A program made the position numbers and the translations under genes. Positions 52,883 through 55,083 of a stretch of 55,083 bases of DNA are shown here, piece after piece. The notes under the pieces were generated by a model, which saw nothing but the letters and a program-made list of their open reading frames with translations, was not told where the DNA came from and did no database searches. Each line of letters starts with the position of its first letter. The stretch's first letter is position 1. The stretch lies in the IMG/VR virus record IMGVR_UViG_2923307698_000002, positions 1 through 55,083 of that record; one strand, given 5' to 3'. The DNA comes from a virus. Its lineage: Duplodnaviria; Heunggongvirae; Uroviricota; Caudoviricetes.

Positions 52883-53670
52883 TTAAGCATCACGTATTGC
52901 CAACCTGATTTTTGACTGATACCAATTGGGGCCTTCTGCAATTATTTCTTCCTCAACATGCATGATGGGATGCATTTCAATTTCAGAGTTTTTGACTTTT
53001 AGATCTAGTCCATATTTTTTTGAAATTTGTAAAACTTCATTTTTGAAATCCTTATCTGCGAAAGGTGAAATCCTTATTTCTTCCAACAGATTATTAAGAG
53101 ATACAGGGACTAGTTTTCCCTTTACAGGTGGAGTGTTAAAGGTATTCTCTTGAAAAATAGCTCTAAACTCTTTTTCGTGTTCGAAAGATGGTCTCTTGTT
53201 AAAGAATACATCTGATTCTGGATTGTATTGTTTTATCCAGAAATTTTTGACGTATTTTACGTGTTTTAATTGTAGTTTGTTTAGATTATTATTTTCAAGT
53301 TGGCTTTGGAGGTTTTTTTCTTTGATTTTATGACAACGCCTTTAGCGGGGTTTTTACAATACAGCTTCCACATAGCTTCAGATTCATGTTCGTTACAATG
53401 CCAGCAACTTATATATGTCCTCTCGCTTATTTCCTTAAGTGTCTTTAAATTGAATGCCATGAAAGGCTCTAAGTCCATGCCGGCACCATGAGTAGCGCAT
53501 AGTTTTTCCTGTGTCTCAATGAATTTTTTATAGCCAGTATGTCCCCAAGCAAATTCACCTTCGAACGGATCTTCAAAATTTTTTGCTGAGCAAAAAAATA
53601 AAGCATTTTGTTCGAGTAACATAGAGAATTTCTCTATGTCAAGATATCGCCATATATACTCAGTGTGCAT
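52883..53670 (-). pseudogene. DUF2971-like gene interrupted by frameshift in an A7 homopolymer (possibly phase-variable)
   Basis: AGGAG-preceded ATG at 53670; N-terminal part (129 aa) stops 19 codons after AAGAAAAAAACC near 53310-53322; the -1 frame continues 130 codons to 52883 with family-like motifs (SFEHEKEFR). Confidence 0.55.
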
Positions 53671-53880
53671 GATAGCTCCTTGCAATATAACTATTTCTAT
53701 CTGTTCATTTGTACTTAAAAAGGATTGAGTAGCCCGAACAGTTCTATCCGTAAATATACCAGATAGAAGAGTTGTACAATAACAAATCCTCCGTATAAGA
53801 ACCAGCCATAATAGTCTGGTTCTTAAGTTTTTTTGTTCGAGGGGTTTTAACCTACGATTCGTCCCCATATCGGCGATAAA

Positions 53881-55083
53881 TTAGGCTTGTACCAACGCTT
53901 CTGTTTCTGTGAGTGAAATCTGATAGCGTTTTACTGCCTCAGCAAAGGCGTGCGCGGCATCTGCATTTGATACCATATATTCTTCAGTTACCCCTGTTTG
54001 AGAATGGAAAGTAATATTTCCATAAATGCAAATAGGGATTTGGTAGTTGTCTTTAAAACGACGGTCTGGTGAGCCATTCTTATTCGTTTTCGCCCATGTA
54101 TAACCATCTATGCGTGAGTCACTGGGAACACCTTCTTCCTCATGGAATCTTAGATATTCTGAACTAATTTGTAATTCGCGTAAATCAATCAGAGCGAATG
54201 CTCCATCGGCTCGTGGTATGACTGCAACTCCAGGATAAAGCAAAATATCGTCTCCATTTGCATTTTCAAACCTCATCGCACGCCCTGTAAATTGAATGAG
54301 ATCCGTTGAACTAAAATCAAAGGTAACTGGGTGACGATTAACAGACCGGGTTGCTAATGTTCTTTCAGCAAACTGGTCTGTAGCTTTATCTGCAGTAATA
54401 TCCCATTTTTTGACACTCGATTTTAACATATCAAATGCATGGACCATCGCTGCATATGCGCGCTGTGAAGCATCACTGCTCTCGAATGTTATGGCTATTT
54501 TTGTGCTGTCTTCCCATGAAACTAGGCGAGATATCTCAGCTTGGGTTAGGGGGAGTAGTGTCTCAAGTTCTGCGATGCGTCGTTTGTAAAACCAACGGAA
54601 TAGACTTGATTTGCGTCGAGCCAGCTCGCTTTTTTGTTTTGATTCTTCGGCAAGAGCCTCTTGAAGATCTGCTTTTATCTCTGCTCTTTGTTCTCGTGCT
54701 TTAGCAATCAAATCTCGTAAAGGTAAAAGGGAGGTACTTGTAAGGACTTCTACCGAAGCGCTGGATATTTCATTCATGCCAGCTACAGGCATATATATTT
54801 TAGCGTTCGATGGTGTGTTTTCTGGAGATGACCCAGACCCCAAATGAGGTTCTGTAGGGGCTGGATTTAATGGATTGGTAACTGAGTATCCATCATCATA
54901 GGGCAAGGTAGGTGTAGTATAAGATAAGCCTGTGCCCGGTAATCCGACAGTTGCTCTAACCCCTTTTTTACCAACATTGACAGTTGCGCCAGGCATGCCA
55001 ATGCTTGCACTTATTCCACGCTTGCCAATGTTGAGTCGAACGCCAGGAAATAAAGTAAAGGTTTGTCTGAAACGAAGAGACAT
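53881..55083 (-). CDS. DUF4236-like N-terminal domain protein (400 aa)
   Basis: Start codon is the last three bases of the window; N-terminal Gly/Lys-rich repeat (RLNIGKRGISASIGMPGATVNVGKKGVRATVGLPGTGLSY) recalled as DUF4236; coiled-coil middle. Confidence 0.55.
   Translation of the reverse strand: MSLRFRQTFTLFPGVRLNIGKRGISASIGMPGATVNVGKKGVRATVGLPGTGLSYTTPTLPYDDGYSVTNPLNPAPTEPHLGSGSSPENTPSNAKIYMPVAGMNEISSASVEVLTSTSLLPLRDLIAKAREQRAEIKADLQEALAEESKQKSELARRKSSLFRWFYKRRIAELETLLPLTQAEISRLVSWEDSTKIAITFESSDASQRAYAAMVHAFDMLKSSVKKWDITADKATDQFAERTLATRSVNRHPVTFDFSSTDLIQFTGRAMRFENANGDDILLYPGVAVIPRADGAFALIDLRELQISSEYLRFHEEEGVPSDSRIDGYTWAKTNKNGSPDRRFKDNYQIPICIYGNITFHSQTGVTEEYMVSNADAAHAFAEAVKRYQISLTETEALVQA

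What the first reader, a model, noticed from the sequence alone, without database searches (positions are those of the whole stretch)
52883..55083. DUF4236-like plus DUF2971-like cargo pair at the tail-fibre end of the prophage
Downstream of tfa and transcribed antisense lies a 400-aa protein with a DUF4236-type Gly/Lys-rich N-terminal domain, followed after a 210-bp gap by a DUF2971-like gene. The tfa-to-attR interval is a known cargo position in lambdoid prophages. Neither family has an established function to my knowledge, and a second DUF2971-like gene sits at the other side of the prophage (10218-11174).
Basis: partly seen in the sequence, partly recalled or inferred. Interest (0 to 1): 0.72.

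Follow-up and report, generated by a model that had tools for sequence, protein, structure and literature searches.

The report
Two unrelated prophage-end cargo genes
At the tail-fibre end of an E. coli prophage sit two independent accessory genes, not a pair: a broken copy of a known candidate anti-phage toxin family (DUF2971) and an intact, highly conserved protein of unknown function (DUF4236 family) that in related bacteria usually lies among phage-defence genes.

Summary
A 400-aa DUF4236 protein is encoded at 53881-55083 (-). After a 210-bp gap comes a DUF2971 gene (52883-53670, -) with a frameshift, and a second DUF2971 gene lies at 10218-11174.

- DUF2971 is no longer uncharacterised. 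It matches PADLOC candidate PDC-S31, has been classified as a DarT/AbiGi-like ADP-ribosyltransferase fold, and one member (lactococcal Aristaios) is an experimentally shown abortive-infection gene.
- The copy here is a pseudogene. It carries A7 where intact alleles carry A8, and the deletion removes the invariant Y140/K159/E166-x-E168/R170 motif.
- The two genes are not a system. No DUF2971 lies within 6 kb of the DUF4236-family gene in 0 of 80 species-level loci. Each gene occurs alone in other prophages. A decayed tRNA-Pro att remnant lies between them, and in one variant an IS110 element as well.
- The DUF4236 gene is the open part. It has a basic Gly-rich N-domain, a linker, a helical hairpin and a weakly PH-like C-domain. 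It is 65-93% identical from enterobacteria to alphaproteobacteria, has no conserved neighbour and no PADLOC hit.
- Its close homologues recur in defence hotspots (Gabija, Kiwa/restriction enzymes, PifA-like, several PDC candidates).

Most likely it is a standalone, membrane-proximal anti-phage candidate. This is unproven.

The parts
53881..55083 (-). Intact gene for the 400-aa DUF4236-family protein (WP_001351450.1). Its promoter region lies beyond the window end.
   Evidence: ORF; Pfam DUF4236 E=7e-21; phrog_17982 over the full length, E=3e-193; annotated 'DUF4236 domain-containing protein' in 147 E. coli genomes.
54910..55083 (-). N-terminal DUF4236 domain (aa 1-58). It is Gly-rich, has net charge +8 and no acidic residue, and consists of alternating hydrophobic/polar short beta-strands.
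   Evidence: Pfam; composition and residue pattern; six short strands in the model, at low pLDDT; in phages the same domain is fused directly to a TM helix.
54787..54909 (-). Variable Pro-rich linker (aa 59-99).
   Evidence: It is the only poorly conserved stretch in alignment A1 and has low pLDDT.
54505..54786 (-). Conserved segment (YMPxAGMNEISSASVEvLTS) plus a long helical hairpin / coiled coil (aa 100-193).
53884..54504 (-). C-terminal beta-rich domain capped by a helix (aa 194-400). The fold is weakly PH-like. It carries the invariant residues W227, R241, G277, W330, N334, G337, D340, R342, N346.
53798..53868 (.). Decayed att remnant between the two genes: a terminator-like hairpin (53800-53821) plus a degenerate copy of the 3' end of tRNA-Pro (53834-53868).
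   Evidence: Alignment A2 with the tRNA-Pro region of FORC_042 and with Klebsiella. In Klebsiella a perfect 45-nt tRNA-Pro 3' fragment plus hairpin follows the DUF4236 stop.
52883..53670 (-). DUF2971 / PDC-S31 gene, inactivated by a 1-nt deletion.
   Evidence: Two-frame reading; restored 262-aa protein hits Pfam DUF2971 and PADLOC PDC-S31 at E=1e-21; intact 789-bp alleles occur in most of 122 E. coli genomes.
53313..53319 (-). Frameshift site: A7 on the coding strand, where intact alleles have A8.
   Evidence: Y140, K159, E166, E168 and R170 are 100% conserved in 70 homologues and are all encoded downstream of this site.
52195..52779 (+). Tail fibre assembly gene tfa, the last late gene and the left border of the cargo slot.
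   Evidence: Annotation of the identical FORC_042 record.
10218..11174 (+). Second, intact DUF2971 / PDC-S31 gene (318 aa as annotated), lying between the distal att repeat and the prophage integrase.
   Evidence: Pfam E=1.8e-9; PADLOC PDC-S31 E=4e-22; annotation.
8108..8155 (.). Perfect 48-bp direct repeat of the 3' end of tRNA-Pro(GGG). It is the distal att site of the composite island, which ends at the tRNA 775 bp beyond the window.
   Evidence: blastn of the window plus the FORC_042 extension; tRNA position.

Best explanation
The interval holds two unrelated, independently acquired accessory ('moron') genes. They are stacked in the tail-fibre-to-attR cargo slot of a lambdoid prophage integrated at tRNA-Pro(GGG).

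Gene 1, DUF2971. It belongs to an ADP-ribosyltransferase-fold family (PADLOC candidate PDC-S31; the same Pfam family as the lactococcal abortive-infection gene Aristaios). In this strain it is dead. A 1-nt deletion in an A8 run truncates the protein before the invariant Y...K...ExE.R catalytic-type motif.

Gene 2, DUF4236. It is intact and stands alone, probably with its own promoter just outside the window. Its domains are a basic, Gly-rich amphipathic beta N-domain, a Pro-rich linker, a helical hairpin and a weakly PH-like C-domain with a conserved W-x-K-x-N-K-D/N-G-S-P-D-R-R-F loop (x = any residue).

Inferred mechanism (not shown). The protein works at the cytoplasmic face of the inner membrane. 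There it acts as a single-gene anti-phage factor, by superinfection exclusion or abortive infection. The conserved C-domain would sense or bind a ligand or partner, and the N-domain plus coiled coil would mediate membrane association and oligomerisation.

Shown here: the anatomy, the pseudogene status, the independence of the two genes, and the recurrent placement of the DUF4236 gene in defence hotspots.
Inferred: the membrane location and the anti-phage role of the DUF4236 protein.
For: Independence of the two genes:
- 0 of 80 species-level loci and only 5 of 30 viral loci have a DUF2971 homologue near the DUF4236-family gene.
- No neighbour is conserved among 78 loci.
- An att remnant lies between the genes. 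An IS110 lies between them in L013, with both genes intact.
- A DUF2971 homologue sits alone in a P2-like prophage.

DUF2971 identity and decay:
-.
- A7 against A8; loss of invariant residues.
- Most E. coli alleles are intact.

The DUF4236 gene is under selection and mobile:
- 65-93% identity between Enterobacterales and Rhodobacterales.
- The nucleotide cassette, including 90-280 bp upstream, is shared between contexts.

Defence-hotspot placement of close homologues:
- Yersinia: type I RM, HNH/type IV REase, Mrr and Kiwa.
- Serratia: ICE cargo region next to GajA/GajB.
- Pectobacterium: integrase island with a PifA-like KAP NTPase.
- E. coli variant: PDC-S71, PD-DExK and PDC-S31.
- Edwardsiella: the Q-to-lysis moron site.
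- Other prophage ends: PDC-M28, PDC-M11 and PDC-S15.

Membrane-proximal inference:
- Distant full-length relatives add a TM helix plus periplasmic SH3_3 or PG_binding_1 after the core.
- Most other phage DUF4236-domain protein types found (92-456 aa) place a TM helix after the N-domain, directly or after a zinc ribbon.
- The N-domain is +8, acid-free and amphipathic.
Against: - There is no experimental evidence for any function of the DUF4236 family.
- It has no hit in PADLOC v2, NCBIfam or the PDB sequence set.
- Across the broad family (28-60% identity; Bacteroidota, Acidobacteria and others) neighbours are mostly housekeeping or unknown genes. Roughly 10 of 150 neighbour proteins hit PADLOC models, which is weak enrichment at best.
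- The DUF4236 N-domain also occurs in lytic phages, so the domain itself is not defence-specific.
- The window protein has no TM helix, so membrane association is by analogy only.
- Guilt by association in prophage cargo slots also fits virulence or fitness morons.
Confidence: 0.55

Rival explanations
1. One reading: DUF4236 and DUF2971 form one two-gene defence system, for example sensor plus ART effector or toxin plus partner.
For: They are adjacent and co-oriented in 122 E. coli genomes and at two different att sites, tRNA-Pro and icd/e14.
Against: - All these copies are >=98.7% identical at the DNA level, so they are one recently spread module and not independent co-occurrence.
- 0 of 80 diverse loci pair them.
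- Each gene occurs alone elsewhere.
- A 210-bp gap with an att remnant and a hairpin separates them, and an IS110 sits there in L013.
- The DUF4236 gene stays intact and identical where DUF2971 is frameshifted.
- DUF2971 systems (PDC-S31, Aristaios) are single-gene.
Confidence: 0.05
2. The DUF4236-coiled-coil-PH-like protein is not an anti-phage factor. It is an envelope or cell-cycle modulator, or a lysogenic-conversion / fitness factor. For example it could be a cytoplasmic adaptor acting like the N-terminal part of bitopic FtsN-type or SH3/PG-binding envelope proteins. On this reading it merely hitchhikes in variable regions.
For: - Distant relatives have a core-TM-linker-SH3_3/PG_binding_1 architecture. 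From my own knowledge this resembles bitopic cell-envelope proteins.
- The broad family is spread over many phyla, often among housekeeping genes.
- The N-domain also occurs in lytic phages.
Against: - The enterobacterial clade is consistently on mobile elements and next to known or candidate defence genes.
- There is no conserved chromosomal context or partner.
- The distribution is patchy: 147 of 5426 E. coli genomes.
Confidence: 0.3
3. The A7 allele of DUF2971 is not dead. It is expressed at low level by transcriptional slippage or ribosomal -1 frameshifting on the A-run, giving a phase-variable or attenuated toxin.
For: The lesion lies in a homopolymer of 7 A. The required shift is -1, equivalent to inserting one A. 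The same A7 allele persists in several complete genomes.
Against: - There is no canonical X_XXY_YYZ heptamer in the zero frame.
- Intact alleles simply carry A8 in frame.
- PGAP annotates only fragments.
- By established knowledge, slippage on runs of 7 is inefficient.
Confidence: 0.07

Closest known systems
Aristaios (Lactococcus plasmid pUCCL641_199; single-gene abortive-infection system with a DUF2971 domain and ART fold; PMC11381338)
   Same: Same Pfam family (DUF2971). Both are single genes on mobile elements, of similar size (262-320 aa against 316 aa).
   Different: The host phylum differs. The copy at 52883-53670 is frameshifted. No phenotype is known for the E. coli genes.
PADLOC-DB candidate system PDC-S31
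   Same: Both window DUF2971 proteins match PDC-S31 HMMs (E=1e-21 and 4e-22).
   Different: PDC-S31 is a computational candidate. No paper in the searchable library mentions it.
DarT / AbiGi-type ADP-ribosyltransferases (the HYE/RSE clades as discussed in PMC12522546)
   Same: The DUF2971 family conserves a Tyr and an ExE.R motif: Y140, E166, E168 and R170 are conserved in 70 of 70 homologues. This matches what that paper describes.
   Different: There is no cognate antitoxin (DarG/AbiGii-like) next to either window copy. Target and activity are unknown. The fold was not modelled here.
Single-gene morons and exclusion genes at lambdoid prophage ends and at the Q-lysis site (for example lambda rex/sieB, lom/bor, phi80 cor; from my own knowledge)
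   Same: Antisense or independent transcription, location next to tail-fibre genes or att, and a patchy distribution.
   Different: The DUF4236 protein has no sequence or fold relation to any of them, and no phenotype is known.
PH-like domains, including bacterial PH proteins (for example PDB 3b77)
   Same: The C-domain model is a beta-sandwich capped by a C-terminal helix. Its best structural matches are PH/PTB domains.

Membership tests
Pfam DUF4236 (PF14020) | HMM match above the gathering score | tested here: met
   74.9 bits against a cut-off of 27, aa 3-56, covering the full profile.
Pfam DUF2971 (PF11185) | HMM match above the gathering score | tested here: met
   Restored 262-aa protein: 29.4 bits against 22. 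The second copy (ORF 10212-11174 as scanned): 39.2 bits. The two fragments as encoded give no hit.
Pfam DUF2971 (PF11185) | An uninterrupted ORF encoding the conserved Y / K / ExE.R residues | tested here: not met
   For the copy at 52883-53670, A7 replaces A8. Y140, K159, E166, E168 and R170 lie after the frameshift. The feature is met for the copy at 10218-11174, which carries SYEQERR (output).
PADLOC PDC-S31 (candidate single-gene defence) | Match to the PDC-S31 HMMs | tested here: met
   E=1.1e-21 (restored copy) and 4.1e-22 (second copy).
Aristaios abortive-infection system | Anti-phage (Abi) phenotype of the gene | not testable with these tools
   Only shared Pfam family membership could be shown. 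The phenotype is reported for the lactococcal protein in PMC11381338.
ADP-ribosyltransferase superfamily | ART fold with an NAD-binding split beta-sheet core | not tested
The assignment rests on PMC12522546 and PMC11381338 and on the conserved ExE motif.
   0 of 80 genome loci; 5 of 30 viral loci, all E. coli-like; each gene occurs alone elsewhere.
Catalogued defence systems (PADLOC-DB v2.0.0), for the DUF4236 protein | A match to any defence HMM | tested here: not met
   No family at E<=1. NCBIfam also gives none.
Defence-island-associated gene (guilt by association) | Homologues recurrently within a few genes of known defence systems | tested here: inconclusive
   The signal is strong for close enterobacterial homologues: 5 of 7 independent contexts. 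It is weak for the broad family: about 10 of 150 neighbour proteins. No background control was run.
PH-like fold (C-terminal domain of the DUF4236 protein) | Significant structural match to PH/PTB domains | tested here: inconclusive

The most novel reading that the evidence does not exclude
The 400-aa DUF4236 / coiled-coil / PH-like protein is a new single-gene anti-phage system absent from current catalogues. It would act at the inner membrane through a previously undescribed basic Gly-rich beta N-domain that many phages also attach to their own small membrane proteins. It spreads as a self-contained ~1.5-kb cassette between prophage ends, ICEs and defence islands, from enterobacteria to alphaproteobacteria.
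Probability: 0.3. Interest if true: 0.65.

Novelty: new member of a known kind. Interest (0 to 1): 0.4.

Why it matters
The region illustrates how lambdoid prophage ends collect and exchange small immunity-type genes. Here a decayed att site records a separate acquisition.

The DUF2971 half adds little. It is a broken copy of a family already flagged, and in one case validated, as an abortive-infection ADP-ribosyltransferase.

The DUF4236 half is a cheap and well-defined experimental target. It is a single intact gene, very strongly conserved, mobile, and repeatedly found beside Gabija, Kiwa, restriction enzymes and PADLOC candidates, yet it is absent from defence catalogues. A positive phage-resistance test would give a first function to the DUF4236 family and to an N-terminal module that is widespread in phage membrane proteins. 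A negative test would show that placement in a hotspot alone is a poor predictor of defence function.

Tried and rejected
- Profile of the family against PDB sequences. The only hit was a chance match to spidroin at E=0.94.
- Foldseek against AFDB50. The library was unavailable.
- Search for a conserved partner gene by all-against-all BLAST of neighbours in 78 loci. None was found.
- Literature searches for DUF4236, PF14020, IPR025330, the WP accession, the PHROG id and the PDC names. They returned only one incidental mention, plus unrelated Plasmodium gene ids.
- Y165H as a second lesion in the DUF2971 allele. Rejected: H is the commoner residue at that column.
- The 1-base length difference seen in other genomes as a repair of the frameshift. 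Rejected: the extra base is in the intergenic T-run at window 53828, and the A7 lesion persists.
- A programmed frameshift at A7. There is no canonical slippery heptamer in frame, so I kept it only as a low-probability rival.
- Plasmid tblastn to reach Aristaios. It found DUF2971 genes on Bacillus, haloarchaeal and other plasmids, and no Lactococcus record appeared among the listed rows or organism counts.
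Full report
**1. What is in the sequence**

The window is the E. coli chromosome around a lambdoid prophage. It is 100% identical to strain FORC_042, NZ_CP025318.1. The side tail fibre gene (48791-52195) and tfa (52195-52779) are the last late genes on the + strand.

Two genes lie on the minus strand downstream of tfa.
- The first is a 400-aa ORF at 53881-55083. Its ATG is the last codon of the window. Pfam DUF4236 matches aa 3-56 (E=7e-21).
- The second starts at the ATG at 53670 (MHTEYIW...), after a 210-bp gap. It is read in one frame up to an A7 run (T7 on the + strand, 53313-53319) and in another frame from there to the stop at 52883.

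Adding one A to the second gene gives a 262-aa protein. It passes the Pfam DUF2971 threshold. It is 98% identical over its full length to a natural 262-aa protein that represents 480 sequences (P0121).

The second DUF2971 gene at 10218-11174 is real.

**2. The DUF2971 gene is a known kind, and this copy is dead**

Both window DUF2971 proteins match the PADLOC candidate single-gene system PDC-S31 (E=1e-21 and 4e-22).

The literature held here shows two things.
- A bioinformatic study places DUF2971 in the ADP-ribosyltransferase superfamily, near DarT and AbiGi. It describes a conserved Tyr and an ExE motif (PMC12522546).
- A lactococcal plasmid gene with a DUF2971 domain, Aristaios, confers abortive-infection phage resistance and is modelled as an ART fold (PMC11381338).

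In an alignment of 70 homologues, D34, C89, W101, Y140, K159, E166, E168 and R170 are invariant. Y140 and everything after it are encoded downstream of the frameshift.

Intact alleles have A8 where the window has A7. Among 122 E. coli genomes carrying the gene, most rows are 789 bp and annotated as an intact 'DUF2971 domain-containing protein'. The window's 788-bp allele is shared by a subset of complete genomes. The lesion is therefore a real lineage-specific 1-nt deletion and not a read error.

Low-level slippage on the A-run cannot be excluded. It has no canonical support.

**3. The two genes are not a pair**

In E. coli, tfa-DUF2971-DUF4236 travels as one module. It is found at tRNA-Pro and also at the icd/e14 site. 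All copies are at least 98.7% identical at the DNA level, so this is one module spreading by recombination. Outside E. coli the association disappears.
- An HMM of DUF2971 homologues finds no hit within 6 kb of the DUF4236-family gene in 80 loci from different species.
- It finds hits in only 5 of 30 viral loci, and all five are E. coli-like.
- An 81%-identical DUF2971 gene sits alone after ogr at the end of a P2-like prophage in Enterobacter.
- The DUF4236 gene sits alone in seven other settings:
  - the tail-fibre end of a Klebsiella prophage at ssrA;
  - between antiterminator Q and the lysis genes of an Edwardsiella prophage;
  - a Yersinia defence island;
  - a Serratia ICE;
  - a Pectobacterium integrase island;
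  - as a lone gene in Paracoccus;
  - as a lone gene in Phaeobacter.
- All-against-all comparison of neighbours in 78 loci finds no conserved partner.

**4. An att scar lies between the genes**

The 210-bp gap contains a hairpin (53800-53821) and a degenerate copy of the 3' end of tRNA-Pro (53834-53868). Together they resemble the tRNA-Pro(GGG) 3' end and its terminator, which lie 775 bp beyond the window.

In Klebsiella the DUF4236 stop codon is followed within about 17 nt by a perfect 45-nt tRNA-Pro 3' fragment and the same hairpin. This is so even though that prophage sits at ssrA. The DUF4236 gene and an att remnant therefore travel together. This points to capture of the gene from a separate tRNA-Pro-integrating element.

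In one metagenomic variant an IS110 transposase lies in this gap, and both genes are intact.

A perfect 48-bp repeat of the tRNA 3' end at 8108-8155 marks the far end of the composite island. Both DUF2971 genes and the DUF4236 gene thus lie inside the att-bounded region, at its two cargo-bearing ends.

**5. Anatomy of the DUF4236 protein**

Alignment of 33 full-length homologues and two AlphaFold models give four parts.
- aa 1-58: the DUF4236 domain. It has ten Gly, net charge +8, no acidic residue and an alternating hydrophobic/polar pattern. The model shows six short strands at low confidence.
- aa 59-99: a variable Pro-rich linker.
- aa 100-193: a conserved segment and a long helical hairpin (pLDDT about 80-90).
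- aa 194-400: a beta-rich domain capped by a C-terminal helix (pLDDT 78.6 when modelled alone).

Conservation is unusually high: 65-69% identity between E. coli and Rhodobacterales. At 30-46% identity twelve residues stay invariant (W227, R241, G277, W330, N334, G337, D340, R342, N346, P350, G364 and S372). From W330 to N346 they lie in a conserved loop with consensus W-x-K-x-N-K-D/N-G-S-P-D-R-R-F (x = any residue).

The protein has no TM helix. It has no hit in PADLOC, NCBIfam or PDB sequences.

**6. Clues to where it works**

An exhaustive search with aa 100-400 finds 2911 cluster representatives. Many are 500-700 aa long. These add, after the core, a hydrophobic helix, a Pro/Ala-rich linker and a bacterial SH3 or PG_binding_1 domain. 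This implies that the core sits on the cytoplasmic side of the inner membrane.

Independently, most other architecture types among phage DUF4236-domain proteins place a TM helix after the N-domain. Some have a zinc ribbon before that helix or an SH3-like domain after it.

I infer that the DUF4236 module is a membrane-proximal cytoplasmic module. This is inference from domain architecture and is not shown for the window protein.

**7. Clues to what it does**

For close enterobacterial homologues the neighbourhoods are consistently accessory regions of mobile elements, rich in defence genes.
- Yersinia: type I RM, an HNH/type IV restriction enzyme, Mrr and Kiwa.
- Serratia: Gabija GajA/GajB in an ICE.
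- Pectobacterium: a PifA-like KAP NTPase.
- An E. coli-like variant: PDC-S71, a PD-DExK protein and PDC-S31.
- Other prophage ends: PDC-M28, PDC-M11, PDC-S15 and methyltransferases.

The shared nucleotide cassette includes 90-280 bp upstream of the ATG. That fits a self-contained transcription unit. A weak sigma-70-like site lies about 100 bp upstream.

Several observations temper the defence reading.
- Across the broad family (Bacteroidota, Acidobacteria, Spirochaetes and others) neighbours are mostly housekeeping or unknown genes. Only about 10 of 150 hit PADLOC models.
- The N-domain also occurs in lytic phages.
- No background control was run.

**8. Verdict**

The finding is a real cargo region of a familiar type.
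- The 'pair' reading is not supported.
- DUF2971 is already a recognised, and in one case validated, anti-phage family, and it is inactivated here.
- The DUF4236-coiled-coil-PH-like gene remains uncharacterised. It is a reasonable single-gene anti-phage candidate acting at the membrane. My estimate for an anti-phage role is about 0.3-0.4.
- The main rival is an envelope-related or fitness function (about 0.3).

Interest is moderate. The value lies in a cheap, decisive experiment on a well-conserved orphan family.

Noticed in passing
window 1-7891: Left of the att repeat lies a separate satellite-like element. It carries a phage major capsid protein (1-927), a small terminase (1087-1575), a RepA/AAA_25 helicase (2640-4040), an Icd-like gene and its own integrase (6650-7891). 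This resembles a capsid-forming PICI integrated in tandem at the displaced tRNA-Pro core.
   Followed up: partly
window 8108-8155, and 775 bp beyond the window end (FORC_042; L001 11081-11157): A perfect 48-bp direct repeat of the tRNA-Pro(GGG) 3' end bounds a ~47.7-kb composite island. The island contains the lambdoid prophage and cargo at both ends.
   Followed up: yes
window 24910-25773 (-) and 24234-24665 (-): Two antisense genes lie at the antiterminator-Q-to-lysis moron site. The 287-aa protein matches PADLOC candidate PDC-S42 (E=1e-32). The 143-aa protein has no hit. This is a third candidate defence cargo in the same prophage.
   Followed up: partly
window 8594-10118: Between the distal att repeat and the second DUF2971 gene lie two overlapping hypothetical genes (255 aa with weak TPR hits; 127 aa) and a frameshifted recombinase fragment (9769-10118). 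This may be the remains of another element or further cargo.
   Followed up: partly
window end (55083) and IMG/VR loci L102, L104-L106, L109, L113, L114, L116, L122: The window ends exactly on the ATG of the DUF4236 gene. Many IMG/VR prophage contigs end at the same base. This looks like a prophage-boundary calling artefact. It cuts off the promoter, a frameshifted dinI-like gene and the true attR (tRNA-Pro).
   Followed up: partly
window 19332-20545 (-): An IS3-family transposase with a programmed frameshift is inserted in the early region of the prophage. The prophage may therefore be defective.
   Followed up: no
window 48940-50223, both strands: The Ala/Ser-rich repetitive N-terminal half of the side tail fibre gene produces several long spurious ORFs (263-335 aa) in other frames and on the opposite strand.
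   Followed up: no
L019/L020 (E. coli strains A2 and FXCREC004), just beyond the DUF4236 gene: Where the same module sits at the icd/e14 site, the cargo continues with a 209-aa hypothetical protein and a DUF3800 protein before the icd fragment. This is a longer stack of accessory genes than in the window.
   Followed up: partly
L003-L007 (Klebsiella), 13-17 nt after the DUF4236 stop: A perfect 45-nt tRNA-Pro 3' fragment plus terminator hairpin is embedded in a prophage that is integrated at ssrA. This is evidence that prophage right ends, with old att scars, are exchanged between phages that use different integration sites.
   Followed up: partly
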